Source of the DNA: Octopus vulgaris
Taxonomy: Eukaryota
Length of the DNA: 64,000 nt
Assembly (NCBI GenBank): GCA_951406725.2
Contig: OX597828.1
Span: 30,628,001-30,692,000 of the forward strand
Direction: 5' to 3'
Shown: one piece after another, positions 57,388 to 62,469 of the stretch
Layout of the letters: each line of letters starts with the position of its first letter
How positions within the stretch are numbered: the first letter of the stretch is position 1
Position numbers: made by a program

Positions 57388-57451
<64 letters not shown>

Positions 57452-60400
57452 AGGAGATGTCGAACACGAGTGGTGATATATAAAAAAGGAAATGAAGAAA
57501 ATGCTGACAAATAATTGAAGTAATTTAAGTAATTTAATTAGGTGAAAGTTCTTTTTACCGGTTGCGCATTTGTTATGCTTATCAAAATATAAAAGAGAGA
57601 TTAGAGTCTGTCTCTTATATGTGAAAAAAAGAGGCTCCAGAGTTGTTTGGGATTTGCTTGGTTTCGCGCCTAAAATTTTGATTGGTCATTATGAAGGGGT
57701 CACGTGAATGTTTGAATGGAAGTTGGTGTTGGGGTAAGAAAAAGGCTCCAGAGAAGTTAAAATTTGGCTAGTGTCCCGCCTAAAATTTCTTATTGGCCAT
57801 AATAAAGAGGTCACGTGAATGTTTAGAATTTTCGAAAATAGTGTTGTTGAAAATTCTTATTGTTCAGGCTGGTCAGTAGACGTCATGTGGATATTTTAAA
57901 TAGCTTTTTAGCGCGTAGTTAGGGAGTGTATTTTCCGCTTGACTGGATAAGTAAGTTCGTTTAGAACAGGGAGAGCTGTATGTATGTATGTGTGTGCGCG
58001 CGCGCGCGTGTGTGTGTTTATATGTATGTTGGGGCGCGCGCGCGTGTATATATGTGTGTGTGTGTGGGTAAAATTTTCAATATTTATAGTTCTGCTGGCC
58101 TTGTGCCTGTATCGGGAAGCAACGTATTTGTGTGAAGTCAATATTTACAGCCATTTCCAAAAAATAGTGTTGGATGTTTTGCACCCGTATTCAATTATGT
58201 GTATGTGTGGAACCATATATTTGTGTGTGTCATGGTGTTAATATCTGGGTAAAGGTGTGTGTAGGGTGTGTGCAGGTGTAAGTGTGTTTGTTGTGGGTTC
58301 GTGTTAGGGGCATGTGTTTAGAAGTGGTCTGTATTTATTAATAAGGTGGGATTCCATGGTTATTCGCTGGGTATGAGTGGCATTGTCTTTAAATTTGTAG
58401 AGGGGAAAGATTCTAAAATTGGGATGGAGTTGTGCGGCACAGGTATCAATATGTGCACTAAATGCTATTTTTCTATATTCCTGTATTTTTATTTGGGATC
58501 TGTGGACAGTCATGCGTTGGCGGAGGCTATTTTTTGTTTGGCCTATGTAGTGTTCATTACAGCCCGAGCAAGTTAAGACATATACTAGGTTTTCTGATGC
58601 GCATGTGAAGTTGTGTTTTACTGTGAAACGTTGTCCTTGTTTAAAAAGGAATTCCGGACCTTCTATTAGGTTGATGCATATACCACAGTTGGGTCTATTG
58701 CATTTGTTTACTGTGGGTTTAGTTGTTGTGGTTGGCAGTACTTTGGCATTTGTTAGGATGGTTTTCAATGATTTGGGTTGCCTTTTGCTCTTTATGATTT
58801 CGTGTGTTAGGAGGATTTGGTTCATTCTATGGTCCTTTTGTAATACAGGAATGTTCTGGAGGATGGTGTCAAAAGCTTCATTGTTGAGGGGGTTGTGTGT
58901 AGAGATGTATGGTAGAGTATGGGGTTTCGATGTAACAGGTTTAGGGCGTCTAAGTTCCTGCGTGCTGAGTTTTAGGGCGCGTTGGATCCCATTGTCAATT
59001 AGTGACGTGGGGTAATCCCTGCTTGTTAATGTGCCCTTGAGTTCTTGTAGACGTAAGAGACGGGTGTTTTTATTGGAGACTATAGTGCAAATTCTCTTGG
59101 CTAAGTTGTAGGGAATGTTAATTTTAACGTGTCTAGGGTGGCATGAATTGAAAGGGAGGTATTGCTTGGAGTCTGTGGGCTTGTAGTATATGTCTGTTTC
59201 TATTTTTTTGTTGTGAATTTTAATGAGGATGTCGAGGAAGGGAATTTGTTGAGGGCTGTATTCCATTGTGAAAATAATGTTTGTGTTGAGCCCATTTATA
59301 AGAGTGTGAAATTCGTTAAGCTTCTCGACGGTTTCGGGCCAAAGGATGAAGCAGTCATCAAGATATCTCTTCCAGTTCTTCTCTATGTGTGTGTGGAGAG
59401 TGGTGCCAAATTGGTTAAGAACGTTATTATAGAGGGTGATTTCCAGGTATCCCATGACTAAGTTGGCGTAAGTGGGAGCTGTTTTCGTTCCCATTGCCGT
59501 CCCTGATTTCTGTCTGTAGAATTTGTTGTTGAAGGTGAAGAAATTATTCTCTAAGATGAATTTGAGTCCTTCTAAAATAAATTCCTTTTTGATGCGGTGT
59601 GGGAGTTCGTTGGAGTAATTATCCAGCCAGAATTGGATAGCTTCTATTCCTAGGTTGTGGGGGATGTTGGAGTAAAGATTGACTACATCGAATGTTACTA
59701 GCAGGGTTTGTTCAGCAAGAAGTGTATTGGGGAGGTGGTTGAGCATATCTAGATCGTCCCTTATGTAGCTTTTAATGTGTTTGAGGAACGGCTTGAGAAG
59801 GGTATCAATGAAGTTGCTAAGGCGGTGGGTTTCGCAAGCGGGACCTGCTATTATAGGTCTCAATTTGAGGTCATTTGGTGAGGGGACATTGATTACAGAG
59901 TTTGTGGCTTCCTTGCATGCCTTACTTATTAATTCGCTTTTATGAATTTTGGGAATACCGTTAATAAGTAAGGCATGCAAGGAAGCCACAAACTCTGTAA
60001 TCAATGTCCCCTCACCAAATGACCTCAAATTGAGACCTATAATAGCAGGTCCCGCTTGCGAAACCCACCGCCTTAGCAACTTCATTGATACCCTTCTCAA
60101 GCCGTTCCTCAAACACATTAAAAGCTACATAAGGGACGATCTAGATATGCTCAACCACCTCCCCAATACACTTCTTGCTGAACAAACCCTGCTAGTAACA
60201 TTCGATGTAGTCAATCTTTACTCCAACATCCCCCACAACCTAGGAATAGAAGCTATCCAATTCTGGCTGGATAATTACTCCAACGAACTCCCACACCGCA
60301 TCAAAAAGGAATTTATTTTAGAAGGACTCAAATTCATCTTAGAGAATAATTTCTTCACCTTCAACAACAAATTCTACAGACAGAAATCAGGGACGGCAAT

Positions 60401-62408
60401 GGGAACGAAAACAGCTCCCACTTACGCCAACTTAGTCATGGGATACCTGGAAATCACCCTCTATAATAACGTTCTTAACCAATTTGGCACCACTCTCCAC
60501 ACACACATAGAGAAGAACTGGAAGAGATATCTTGATGACTGCTTCATCCTTTGGCCCGAAACCGTCGAGAAGCTTAACGAATTTCACACTCTTATAAATG
60601 GGCTCAACACAAACATTATTTTCACAATGGAATACAGCCCTCAACAAATTCCCTTCCTCGACATCCTCATTAAAATTCACAACAAAAAATAGAAACAGAC
60701 ATATACTACAAGCCCACAGACTCCAAGCAATACCTCCCTTTCAATTCATGCCACCCTAGACACGTTAAAATTAACATTCCCTACAACTTAGCCAAGAGAA
60801 TTTGCACTATAGTCTCCAATAAAAACACCCGTCTCTTACGTCTACAAGAACTCAAGGGCACATTAACAAGCAGGGATTACCCCACGTCACTAATTGACAA
60901 TGGGATCCAACGCGCCCTAAAACTCAGCACGCAGGAACTTAGACGCCCTAAACCTGTTACATCGAAACCCCATACTCTACCATACATCTCTACACACAAC
61001 CCCCTCAACAATGAAGCTTTTGACACCATCCTCCAGAACATTCCTGTATTACAAAAGGACCATAGAATGAACCAAATCCTCCTAACACACGAAATCATAA
61101 AGAGCAAAAGGCAACCCAAATCATTGAAAACCATCCTAACAAATGCCAAAGTACTGCCAACCACAACAACTAAACCCACAGTAAACAAATGCAATAGACC
61201 CAACTGTGGTATATGCATCAACCTAATAGAAGGTCCGGAATTCCTTTTTAAACAAGGACAACGTTTCACAGTAAAACACAACTTCACATGCGCATCAGAA
61301 AACCTAGTATATGTCTTAACTTGCTCGGGCTGTAATGAACACTACATAGGCCAAACAAAAAATAGCCTCCGCCAACGCATGACTGTCCACAGATCCCAAA
61401 TAAAAATACAGGAATATAGAAAAATAGCATTTAGTGCACATATTGATACCTGTGCCGCACAACTCCATCCCAATTTTAGAATCTTTCCCCTCTACAAATT
61501 TAAAGACAATGCCACTCATACCCAGCGAATAACCATGGAATCCCACCTTATTAATAAATACAGACCACTTCTAAACACATGCCCCTAACACGAACCCACA
61601 ACAAACACACTTACACCTGCACACACCCTACACACACCTTTACCCAGATATTAACACCATGACACACACAAATATATGGTTCCACACATACACATAATTG
61701 AATACGGGTGCAAAACATCCAACACTATTTTTTGGAAATGGCTGTAAATATTGACTTCACACAAATACGTTGCTTCCCGATACAGGCACAAGGCCAGCAG
61801 AACTATAAATATTGAAAATTTTACCCACACACACACACACATATATACACGCGCGCGCGCCCCAACATACATATAAACACACACACGCGCGCGCGCGCGC
61901 ACACACATACATACATACAGCTCTCCCTGTTCTAAACGAACTTACTTATCCAGTCAAGCGGAAAATACACTCCCTAACTACGCGCTAAAAAGCTATTTAA
62001 AATATCCACATGACGTCTACTGACCAGCCTGAACAATAAGAATTTTCAACAACACTATTTTCGAAAATTCTAAACATTCACGTGACCTCTTTATTATGGC
62101 CAATAAGAAATTTTAGGCGGGACACTAGCCAAATTTTAACTTCTCTGGAGCCTTTTTTCTTACCCCAACACCAACTTCCATTCAAACATTCACGTGACCC
62201 CTTCATAATGACCAATCAAAATTTTAGGCGCGAAACCAAGCAAATCCCAAACAACTCTGGAGCCTCTTTTTTTCACATATAAGAGACAGACTCTAATCTC
62301 TCTTTTATATTTTGATAAGCATAACAAATGCGCAACCGGTAAAAAGAACTTTCACCTAATTAAATTACTTAAATTACTTCAATTATTTGTCAGCATTTTC
62401 TTCATTTC

Positions 62409-62469
<61 letters not shown>

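What the first reader, a model, noticed from the sequence alone, without database searches (positions are those of the whole stretch)
57446..62413. 4.9-kb near-perfect PLE palindrome recording fold-back second-strand synthesis
Seen: ~2.45 kb arms; the differences I noticed are only homopolymer/dinucleotide lengths. The 28-nt spacer (59933-59960) is extra element sequence (GIPKIHKSE) of the left arm and is bounded by ttaa. The left arm alone has a ~35-nt 3' tail, and both flanks are (TA)n. Established: PLEs often show inverted 5'-truncated segments and short 3' tails. Inference: the truncated cDNA looped back at ttaa and copied almost its whole length. A full-length, nearly unmutated mirror implies a very recent, probably active family.
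Basis: partly seen in the sequence, partly recalled or inferred. Interest (0 to 1): 0.75.

Follow-up and report, generated by a model that had tools for sequence, protein, structure and literature searches.

The report
Mirror-image Penelope-like retrotransposon insertion
A very young, front-truncated Penelope-like retrotransposon sits inside a TA-repeat as two mirror-image copies, which is a textbook insertion pattern for this class of mobile element and therefore a neat specimen rather than a new kind of thing.

Summary
Window 57446-62413 is a 4.9-kb palindrome. The two element bodies (57488-59932 and 59961-62409) align over 2444 nt with 0 substitutions and 4 indels, all in homopolymer or dinucleotide runs. 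A 28-nt spacer continues only the left copy's ORF. A 36-nt tail is present only on the left arm, and (TA)n lies on both flanks.

The arms encode reverse transcriptase followed by GIY-YIG endonuclease, so this is a canonical Penelope-like element (PLE) with a C-terminal endonuclease. It lacks about 200 N-terminal codons.

Head-to-head inverted 5'-truncated copies, a one-sided 30-40-bp tail and (TA)n targets are all published PLE hallmarks. The structure is therefore a new member of a known kind.

It has precedent in R2-protein insertions. It remains unproven:
- The role claimed for 'ttaa' is not supported.
- Priming on both target strands is a published rival.
- A fold-back assembly artefact cannot be excluded without reads.
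- Both flanking tracts are exactly (TA)26, so the symmetry does not stop at the element terminus.

'Very recent' is supported. 'Active family' could not be tested.

The parts
57395..57446 (.). Left flanking perfect (TA)26 tract. It is target microsatellite and possibly one copy of a 52-bp target-site duplication.
   Evidence: regex census of TA tracts; sequence read.
57446..57481 (-). 3' 'tail' present only on the left copy. In sense orientation it reads ATATAT + CACCACTCGTGTTCGACATCTCC + T7. In sense it is bracketed by the direct repeat T6-ATATAT ... T7-ATATAT.
   Evidence: It occurs nowhere else in the window with <=6 mismatches. A one-sided 30-40-bp tail is a published PLE feature.
57482..58303 (-). 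3' UTR of the left copy, a candidate pLTR-type region. It contains (GT)n/(GC)n runs and two direct repeats of about 95 nt carrying CCAAT-, E-box- and CRE-like words.
   Evidence: 79% identical internal repeats at 57624-57717 and 57736-57829, mirrored at 62067-62161 and 62180-62273. The motif names are by eye only.
58304..59959 (-). Left-copy ORF of 551 codons plus stop, fully open. It holds the RT (from motif G-I-P-K-I-H-K through YLDD), a CX4CxxC linker and the GIY-YIG endonuclease. The 5' truncation point is 59960.
   Evidence: RVT_1 E=1.7e-7; GIY-YIG E=2.9e-6; alignment A1.
59933..59960 (-). 28-nt spacer at the centre of the palindrome. It is extra 5' element sequence of the left copy only (GIPKIHKSE).
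59961..61588 (+). Right-copy coding region. It is identical to the left copy except for A6 instead of A7 at 60684-60689. This shifts the frame and creates a TAG stop, splitting the ORF into pieces of 248 and 304 aa.
61589..62413 (+). Right-copy 3' UTR. It ends at CC-T4 and runs directly into ATATAT/(TA)n with no tail.
   Evidence: The same terminus (T-run followed by ATATAT(A)) is seen in 4 of 4 related PLE copies inspected.
62413..62464 (.). Right flanking perfect (TA)26 tract, the same length as the left one.

Best explanation
One recent retrotransposition event placed a 5'-truncated Penelope-like element with a C-terminal GIY-YIG endonuclease into a (TA)n microsatellite as a head-to-head inverted duplicate.

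Most likely course (all steps are inferred; only the anatomy is shown):
1. The element's endonuclease nicked the TA tract.
2. The plus-strand 3'-OH at the end of the left (TA)26 primed reverse transcription at the distal of two U-run/AUAUAU sites, so the tail was copied.
3. About 2.5 kb of cDNA was made, up to RT motif G-I-P-K-I-H-K (59960).
4. The polymerase then left the RNA and resumed on its own nascent cDNA 28 nt behind the 3' end. This is snap-back, with little or no microhomology.
5. It copied the cDNA back to the first ATATAT. There the new strand was captured by the TA repeats on the other side of the break, so the tail was not mirrored.
6. The minus strand was then filled in from the right flank.

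The equal (TA)26 tracts may be a 52-bp target-site duplication of the whole tract.

The copy itself is dead: it has no N-terminal ~200 codons and no 5' region.
For: Identity as a PLE:
- RT and GIY-YIG lie in one ORF.
- 884 of 4323 candidates match at E<=1e-20, and full-length relatives are about 750 aa.

Published PLE insertion signature. A head-to-head inverted 5'-truncated copy, a 30-40-bp tail at one end only and (TA)n targets are described in Craig et al. 2021 PMC8557442 (passages) and Arkhipova et al. 2013 PMC3846280 (passages). Frangieh et al. 2024 PMC11167929 maps the tail to the stretch between two RT start sites (main text).

In favour of snap-back at this locus:
- The inner ends of the two copies differ by only 28 nt. 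Under independent, uniformly placed truncation over about 3.2 kb this would occur in roughly 2% of cases (my estimate).
- The spacer is contiguous ORF sequence of one arm only.
- cDNA snap-back 5' junctions were sequenced in cells for R2-protein-driven insertions (PMC11371274, passages).

The 3' terminus is genuine. A T-run followed by ATATAT(A) ends 4 of 4 related copies inspected.

Youth. There are 0 substitutions in 2444 nt, and the left arm keeps a 551-codon open ORF.

Against an artefact. The tail is not mirrored, and the unique flanks are unrelated.
Against: - No reads were available, so the structure rests on the assembly alone.
- Every difference between the arms is of the kind long-read consensus errors produce.
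- Snap-back by itself predicts that the tail would be mirrored. An extra capture step at ATATAT has to be assumed.
- No hairpin places the cDNA 3' end at the turn (DNA fold z about -0.3).
- 9 of 9 homologues have Tyr where the palindrome reads Asn, so the TTAA microhomology is doubtful.
- A purified PLE protein cleaves and extends both target strands in vitro. That offers a different route to inverted copies and explains tail asymmetry directly.
- The typical published PLE arrangement has unequal inverted copies, which simple snap-back does not explain.
- Arm identity could be maintained by gene conversion between arms, so 0 substitutions is only an upper bound on the time since the arms last became identical (general knowledge, not tested).
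Confidence: 0.5

Rival explanations
1. Dual-strand target-primed reverse transcription. The PLE ribonucleoprotein (predicted to be a dimer) nicked both strands of the TA tract, and each 3'-OH primed its own cDNA on a separate RNA. One started at the distal site (giving the tail) and one at the proximal AUAUAU site (no tail). The two cDNAs were then joined end to end, by template jump or repair, each serving as template for the other's complement.
For: - The purified Anolis PLE protein cleaves and extends both top and bottom strands, uses two adjacent RT start sites that delimit the tail, and is predicted to dimerise (PMC11167929, main text).
- It explains tail asymmetry without any extra step.
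- It fits the usual unequal inverted copies of PLEs.
- Staggered nicks at the two tract edges would also give equal (TA)26 tracts as a target-site duplication.
Against: - Two independent cDNAs of about 2.5 kb would have to stop within 28 nt of each other, roughly 2% under uniform independent truncation (my estimate).
- No pause signal is evident at the turn.
- The in vitro work used short templates and a different PLE clade.
Confidence: 0.2
2. Sequencing or assembly artefact. A fold-back chimeric long read (or an amplification palindrome) was built into the consensus, and the genome really holds one 5'-truncated copy at the right edge of a single (TA)26 tract next to AAAATTTATATT.
For: - Fold-back artefact reads make up about 0.55-0.6% of ONT genomic reads (PMC12870357, passages).
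- Whole-genome amplification creates artificial palindromes (PMC6218980, abstract in the search listing only).
- The arms differ only at homopolymer and dinucleotide runs.
- The equal (TA)26 tracts are what a mirror of the flank would give.
- The tail is bracketed by 12-nt direct repeats, so it could be lost by slippage or in the consensus.
Against: - An artefact read mirrors everything up to its ends. Here the 36-nt tail is not mirrored, and the sequence beyond (TA)26 differs on the two sides.
- Joining a chimeric read to the true right flank through 52 nt of TA repeat is unlikely for overlap-based long-read assemblers (inference).
- The right arm ends at the canonical family terminus.
- No other long mirror of this kind occurs in the window. 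The one other long non-microsatellite inverted pair (8791-9086 / 10138-10433) has a 1051-nt centre and is also PLE-derived.
- Fold-back reads were virtually absent from the HiFi data examined in PMC12870357.
Confidence: 0.15
3. DNA-level inverted duplication after an ordinary single-copy insertion. A replication template switch or fold-back repair used the TA repeats and short microhomology, with no reverse transcriptase involved.
For: - Template switching at forks produces inverted duplications through hairpin intermediates (PMC10766183 and PMC4689423, titles and abstracts in the search listing only).
- (TA)n tracts are self-complementary and lie at both ends.
Against: - The turn lies exactly at the element's truncated 5' end and the outer ends at element termini. 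That is expected for an integration-coupled event and would be a coincidence for a later one.
- The tail is not mirrored.
- PLEs are known to generate such structures on insertion.
Confidence: 0.07
4. Two independent insertions of the same family, in opposite orientation, into the same TA tract.
For: Several PLE copies in this window abut TA repeats, so the tracts are repeated targets.
Against: - It needs the same truncation point within 28 nt.
- It needs direct abutment with no target DNA between the copies.
- It needs zero substitutions between the two copies.
Confidence: 0.02

Closest known systems
Canonical EN+ Penelope-like element insertion units (Penelope/Poseidon, Neptune, Nematis), as described by Arkhipova and co-workers (PMC8557442, PMC3846280)
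   Same: - Single ORF with RT followed by a C-terminal GIY-YIG endonuclease, with two Cys inside the GIY-YIG core.
- Heavy 5' truncation.
- An inverted 5'-truncated copy placed head-to-head.
- An optional 30-40-bp tail at one end only.
- An AT-rich or (TA)n target.
- A CX4CxxC linker, as reported for Neptune and Nematis.
   Different: - There is no full-length unit and no direct pseudo-LTR tandem here.
- Both copies are truncated at almost the same point, so the locus is a near-perfect 4.9-kb palindrome rather than a long unit with a short inverted piece.
- No hammerhead core was found in the retained 3' UTR.
- Clade placement by phylogeny was not done.
cDNA snap-back 5' junctions in R2-protein-driven (PRINT) transgene insertion (PMC11371274)
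   Same: [quoted passage not shown] This implies that the cDNA 3' end primed DNA-templated synthesis on itself before 5' junction formation.
   Different: - That system uses a different retroelement class (R2, restriction-like endonuclease), an engineered template and human cells.
- Whether those snap-backs ever copy the whole cDNA back to the target, as needed here, was not seen in the passages read.
L1 twin priming (5' inversion). This comparison is recalled from general knowledge and was not checked in a call.
   Same: A second 3'-OH from the other target strand gives an inverted segment within one insertion event.
   Different: Twin priming on one RNA gives two different, essentially non-overlapping parts of the element. 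Here both arms carry the same 2.44 kb.
Fold-back artefact reads in long-read sequencing (PMC12870357)
   Same: Two segments map to the same place on opposite strands with a short or absent spacer.
   Different: Artefact reads are mirrored to both read ends around the read midpoint. Here the mirror stops at (TA)26, omits the tail and is embedded between two different unique flanks.

Membership tests
Penelope-like elements (EN+, C-terminal endonuclease) | PLE-type reverse transcriptase domain | tested here: met
   - Pfam RVT_1 E=1.7e-7, 31.6 bits against a cut-off of 29.6.
- Motifs G-I-P-K-I-H-K and R-Y-L-D-D-C are aligned and invariant with 9 relatives.
- 884 of 4323 candidates match at E<=1e-20.
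Penelope-like elements (EN+, C-terminal endonuclease) | GIY-YIG endonuclease fused C-terminally in the same ORF, with two Cys inside the GIY-YIG core | tested here: met
   - Pfam GIY-YIG E=2.9e-6 at residues 458-545 of P0001.
- The sequence reads V-Y-V-L-T-C-S-G-C-N-E-H-Y-I-G-Q-T.
- The feature is as described in PMC8557442.
Penelope-like elements (EN+, C-terminal endonuclease) | Inverted 5'-truncated copy adjacent head-to-head | tested here: met
   The 5' ends face each other across a 28-nt spacer.
Penelope-like elements (EN+, C-terminal endonuclease) | Optional 30-40-bp 3' tail at one end of the unit only | tested here: met
   A 36-nt extension is present on the left copy only. That it is element-derived is inferred, because no second copy of the family was available.
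Penelope-like elements (EN+, C-terminal endonuclease) | Pseudo-LTRs from partial tandem copies | tested here: not met
   No direct repeat of element sequence flanks the unit. Only two internal repeats of about 95 nt occur in the 3' UTR. This is a feature of full-length units, so its absence from a truncated copy is not disqualifying.
Penelope-like elements (EN+, C-terminal endonuclease) | Hammerhead ribozyme motif in the pLTR/UTR | tested here: inconclusive
   - No Rfam hammerhead at E<=1, and no CTGANGA...GAAA core even with 1 mismatch allowed.
- Rfam also returned nothing for relative L002, whose 3' UTR carries a CTGACGAG...CGAAA core by regex.
- The 5' part of the element is missing.
- Some PLE clades lack hammerhead motifs altogether.
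Penelope-like elements (EN+, C-terminal endonuclease) | AT-rich or microsatellite target | tested here: met
   (TA)26 lies on both sides. (TA)n bias is published for Naiads and microsatellite bias is hypothesised for Neptune.
Neptune/Nematis-type PLE clades | CX2-5CxxC zinc-finger-like linker upstream of GIY-YIG | tested here: met
   C420-x4-C425-x2-C428 in P0001, invariant in all 10 aligned sequences. The feature definition is from PMC8557442.
Neptune/Nematis-type PLE clades | Phylogenetic placement of the RT with named reference elements | not tested
   No named reference PLE sequences were available from the tools, so the clade is left open (the Hydra clade also has a C-terminal EN).
cDNA snap-back insertion junction | [quoted passage not shown] | tested here: met
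   The plus strand reads antisense element, then the 28-nt spacer, then sense element. The definition is as in PMC11371274.
cDNA snap-back insertion junction | Base pairing or microhomology at the turn | tested here: inconclusive
   - At most 4 nt (TTAA) are available.
- 9 of 9 homologues have Tyr (TAY) where the palindrome gives AAC, so perhaps only 1 nt was RNA-templated.
- The minimum-free-energy folds do not pair the 3' end with the turn site (z -0.3 to +0.3).
- The master copy was not available.
Long-read fold-back artefact | Mirror symmetry continues through all flanking sequence | tested here: not met
   The tail is not mirrored and the unique flanks are unrelated. The equal (TA)26 tracts are compatible with an artefact.
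Long-read fold-back artefact | No non-palindromic reads span the structure | not testable with these tools
   No read data were available.

The most novel reading that the evidence does not exclude
The two exactly equal (TA)26 tracts and the two nearly equal arms may record a concerted, two-fold symmetric integration. A dimeric PLE ribonucleoprotein would recognise the self-complementary TA tract as a structure (for example an extruded cruciform). It would cut both strands symmetrically, at the tract edges or the tract centre, and run two reverse transcriptions in step until a joint template switch. If so, PLE GIY-YIG endonucleases would be structure-specific nucleases for palindromic microsatellites, and PLE mirror insertions would be the product of a symmetric dimer rather than of an accident of second-strand synthesis.
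Probability: 0.07. Interest if true: 0.7.

Novelty: new member of a known kind. Interest (0 to 1): 0.3.

Why it matters
PLE integration is the least understood of the major retrotransposition mechanisms. How their characteristic tandem and inverted structures and one-sided tails arise is stated as an open question.

This locus is an unusually clean natural product. It is essentially unmutated, and both junctions, the turn and the tail are all readable. It shows that the two copies of an inverted pair can share their inner end to within 28 nt, while using different 3' start sites that both lie at a T-run followed by ATATAT.

On its own the locus cannot decide between snap-back and dual-strand priming. 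A census of this family in the same genome could, using three measures: spacer length, which arm carries the tail, and TA-tract lengths.

For genome annotation, the locus is a reminder that PLE mirrors can look like fold-back artefacts, and the reverse.

Tried and rejected
- **Hammerhead search.** Rfam at E<=1 over 56000-64000 gave 57 sub-threshold hits, the great majority to miRNA-precursor families on hairpins and TA repeats, and no hammerhead. Regex core searches found nothing in either arm. Rfam also found nothing in L001 or L002, although L002 has a core motif by regex, so the Rfam negative carries little weight.
- **Hairpin at the turn.** Four DNA folds of the putative cDNA 3' end gave z-scores from -0.43 to +0.27, and none paired the 3' end with the turn site. 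A thermodynamically driven fold-back at TTAA is rejected.
- **'ttaa' as a signal.** This is rejected as uninformative. Any self-complementary tetramer at the inner arm end appears on both sides of the spacer, with a prior of 16/256 (my arithmetic).
- **Tail origin.** The tail is not found elsewhere in the window with <=6 mismatches. A by-eye resemblance to the tRNA-like flank of L001 was no better than shuffles (178 of 300 shuffles scored as well) and is rejected.
- **Related loci.** These are short contigs filed under bacterial assemblies. Neither has inverted repeats of >=25 nt, so they say nothing about mirrors. They were useful only for the 3' terminus comparison.
- **No master or sister copy.** The window holds no other copy of this family (best 70% nucleotide identity), and the protein collection has nothing above 63%.
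- **Collections not available.** A family census, the master sequence at the turn and an empty site therefore all stayed unchecked.
- **Neighbouring ORFs.** Pfam on three neighbouring ORFs gave no hits. These were a Tc1-like piece at 56868-57227 and an ORF at 29414-29992.
- **Literature.** PMC9977147 and PMC12910113 contained nothing on inverted PLE structures in the passages shown. No supplementary files were opened. Figures S1-S2 of PMC11167929 and the supplements of PMC8557442 may hold tail and junction detail that bears on the start-site claim.

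
Full report
**Observation**

The stretch 57446-62413 is a true palindrome in the assembled sequence. The inverted-repeat search finds four contiguous arm segments that together run 57476-59932 and 59961-62421. Global alignment of the left arm with the reverse complement of the right arm resolves every difference.

From the inner ends to the terminal CC of the element (left 57488-59932, right 59961-62409) there are 2444 aligned positions. They contain no substitution and four indels:
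- A7 versus A6
- one extra CA in a (CA)n run
- one extra CG in a (CG)n run
- T5 versus T6

The terminal T-run is T6 on the left and T4 on the right.

The 28-nt spacer (59933-59960), read on the minus strand, continues the left copy's reading frame as GIPKIHKSE.

Only the left copy has an extension beyond the common terminus. In sense orientation this is ATATAT, 23 unique nt and T7 (57446-57481). It occurs nowhere else in the window, even with six mismatches allowed.

Both sides abut TA repeats. With zero substitutions in 2444 nt, the 95% upper bound on arm divergence is about 0.12%.

**Two corrections to the description**

First, both flanking perfect tracts are exactly (TA)26 (57395-57446 and 62413-62464). 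Because (TA)n is its own reverse complement, the mirror actually extends over 57395-62464. It is interrupted only by the tail and the spacer, and it does not end 'exactly at the element terminus'. Among the 30 TA tracts of at least 15 repeats in this window, two random tracts have the same length with probability about 0.06 (this estimate includes the pair itself). Beyond the tracts the flanks are unrelated.

Second, 'bounded by ttaa' carries no information. TTAA is self-complementary, so if it ends one arm it necessarily begins the other.

**What it is**

The left arm carries an uninterrupted 551-codon frame (P0001, 58307-59959 minus strand). It has Pfam RVT_1 (E=1.7e-7) followed by GIY-YIG (E=2.9e-6). 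In the right arm the A6 run shifts the frame and splits the ORF.

The protein search found 884 of 4323 candidates at E<=1e-20. The best is 63% identical, and typical lengths are about 750 aa. The named entries among the 120 listed are bivalve proteins or proteins filed under bivalve-symbiont bacterial assemblies.

Aligned with nine of the best hits (9 of the 120 listed, chosen from the top 14 by E-value), P0001 starts at the conserved G-[LI]-P-K-[IV]-H-K motif. It lacks roughly 200 N-terminal residues that all nine relatives have.

The linker C-x4-C-x2-C before the GIY-YIG core and the two Cys inside the core are invariant in the alignment. They correspond to features that Craig et al. 2021 (PMC8557442, passages read) describe for Neptune/Nematis and for all canonical EN+ PLEs respectively.

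So each arm is a 5'-truncated copy of a canonical Penelope-like element with a C-terminal endonuclease: about 1.66 kb of ORF plus about 0.8 kb of 3' UTR. I did not place it in a clade by phylogeny, because no named reference sequences were available.

No hammerhead ribozyme was found. That negative is weak, because Rfam also missed the core motif present in the 3' UTR of a relative.

**The terminus and the tail**

Four of four related copies inspected end their 3' UTR with a pyrimidine-rich T-run followed by ATATAT(A). These are this element, the 63%-identical copy at 46460-47.9 kb in the window, and two external contigs, L001 and L002. The right arm therefore ends at the family's canonical terminus.

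In the left arm the same T-run-plus-ATATAT is followed by 23 nt and a second T-run that meets the TA tract. The tail is therefore bracketed by two copies of the same short word.

Frangieh et al. 2024 (PMC11167929, main text read) showed for an Anolis PLE that the genomic tail is the stretch between two alternative reverse-transcription start sites. The anatomy here fits that. It also suggests that in this group the TA-repeat 3' end of the nicked target can pair with AUAUAU at either site. This last point is my inference. Those authors saw no homology at their start sites.

**Comparison with what is known**

Three published passages cover the architecture:
- Craig et al. 2021 state that PLE insertions are highly 5'-truncated. 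[quoted passage not shown] A 30-40-bp tail is often present at only one end. (TA)n is a common target, and these structures trouble assemblies.
- Arkhipova et al. 2013 (PMC3846280, passages) report head-to-head as the most frequent inverted arrangement. They note palindromes at the inverted junction and a 31-bp optional tail on one of the inverted repeats, and they propose a self-priming mechanism.
- The window itself holds a second inverted pair with GIY-YIG-like ORFs (E about 3e-4, just under Pfam's cut-off) from another family (arms 8791-9086 and 10138-10433, 99% complementary). It also holds a 5'-truncated PLE abutting (TA)18.

The finding is therefore a well-preserved example of a known architecture. 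What is unusual is its symmetry. There is no full-length unit and no pseudo-LTR tandem, and both copies are truncated at almost the same nucleotide.

**Mechanism**

The plus strand reads, 5' to 3':
1. (TA)26
2. the tail and antisense element, which has cDNA polarity
3. the 28 nt of additional antisense sequence
4. the sense element
5. (TA)26

This is what a single strand would look like if three things happened. It would have been primed on the left TA tract and copied from RNA for about 2.5 kb. It would then have switched onto itself 28 nt behind its own 3' end and copied itself back.

Such cDNA snap-back junctions have been sequenced for R2-protein-driven insertions in human cells (PMC11371274, passages).

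The strongest argument for snap-back here is the coincidence of the inner ends. If two cDNAs were truncated independently and uniformly over about 3.2 kb, ends within 28 nt would be expected about 2% of the time (my estimate).

The weak points are as follows:
- Nothing marks the turn. The folds of the putative cDNA end are no better than shuffles and do not pair the 3' end.
- All nine relatives have Tyr immediately before the G-L-P-K motif, whereas the palindrome reads Asn there. Probably at most about one nucleotide of the TTAA was RNA-templated (inference from relatives that are at most 63% identical).
- Simple snap-back should also mirror the tail. One must add that the returning strand was captured by the TA repeats of the other target end at the first ATATAT.

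**The main biological rival**

The main rival is dual-strand priming. The Anolis PLE protein nicks and extends both target strands, uses the two start sites on either strand, and is predicted to be a dimer.

This explains the one-sided tail directly, and it explains the usual unequal inverted copies. It does not explain the coincident inner ends.

Both models accommodate the equal (TA)26 tracts as a 52-bp target-site duplication, from nicks at the two edges of one (TA)26 tract. That reading is itself unproven.

**Artefact?**

Fold-back chimeric reads are a documented long-read artefact, at about 0.55-0.6% of ONT genomic reads and virtually none in the HiFi data examined (PMC12870357, passages).

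Points compatible with an artefact:
- Every difference between the arms is of the consensus-error type.
- The equal (TA)26 tracts are what a mirror of the flank would give.

Points against it:
- The 36-nt tail is not mirrored.
- The right arm stops at the canonical family terminus.
- The sequence beyond (TA)26 differs on the two sides.
- The other long non-microsatellite inverted pair in the window is again PLE-derived.

I put the artefact at about 15%. Only reads can settle it.

**Age and activity**

Zero substitutions and an intact 551-codon ORF argue for a very recent event. Long palindromes with short spacers are generally regarded as unstable (title and abstract of PMC7999016 in the search listing, and general knowledge), which points the same way. 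Gene conversion between arms could also keep them identical.

The copy is itself non-autonomous. Whether the family is active could not be tested. 

**Verdict**

- The locus is a new member of a known kind: a young, mirror-image, 5'-truncated PLE insertion in a TA microsatellite.
- Snap-back is the best single explanation for this locus (about 0.5, including that the structure is real). Dual-strand priming stands at about 0.2, artefact at about 0.15, and later DNA-level duplication at about 0.07.
- Interest is modest (0.3). The locus is a clean specimen that makes a specific census test possible, not a new phenomenon.

Noticed in passing
window 57395-57446 and 62413-62464: The two perfect TA tracts flanking the palindrome are exactly the same length, (TA)26. 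The chance of this is about 0.06 from the window's own tract-length distribution. It could be a 52-bp target-site duplication of a whole tract, a mirrored flank, or coincidence.
   Followed up: partly
window 8780-10456: A second inverted pair from a different, PLE-like family. The arms are 8791-9086 and 10138-10433 (296 nt, 99% complementary, 1051 nt apart). Each encodes a GIY-YIG-like segment (Pfam E about 3e-4, just under the cut-off), and the 5' ends face each other. The minus-strand copy also has an RT-motif-1-like stretch (LYGLRKDHK). The outer ends of the arms stop inside the ORF rather than at an element terminus.
   Followed up: partly
window 43117-45079 (-) and 46460-47041 (+): Two further PLE copies of other families, about 40% and 63% amino-acid identity to P0001. 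The plus-strand copy is 5'-truncated directly against (TA)18 (46424-46459). Its 3' UTR (about 47150-47560) holds a tandem array of units of about 60-70 nt with GATTGGTCA and TGATGACGTC words (CCAAT- and CRE-like by eye).
   Followed up: partly
window 62676-62772: A hairpin-forming inverted repeat of about 97 nt built around a (TA)n core (ctctaaaatcacatt...aatgtgattttagag). It gives only sub-threshold miRNA-precursor matches in Rfam on both strands (best 51 bits against a gathering score of 101).
   Followed up: no
window 56990-57230 (+): A degenerate ORF fragment (…[23 protein letters not shown], stops, …PTFKHGRESVMIWGEG) that looks by eye like a Tc1/mariner-type transposase remnant just left of the palindrome. 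Pfam gave no hit for the two open pieces.
   Followed up: partly
L002 3660-3686: A 41%-identical relative on a contig filed under a bacterial assembly has a hammerhead-like core (CTGACGAG...CGAAA) about 80 nt upstream of its T-run-plus-ATATATA terminus. Rfam reported nothing there at E<=0.1.
   Followed up: partly
whole window: The window is very rich in microsatellites. There are 68 perfect (TA)n tracts of at least 6 repeats, covering 3.2% of the window, plus many (CA)n, (CATA)n and (GACA)n arrays. No ORF of 170 aa or more lies outside transposable elements or repeats.
   Followed up: no
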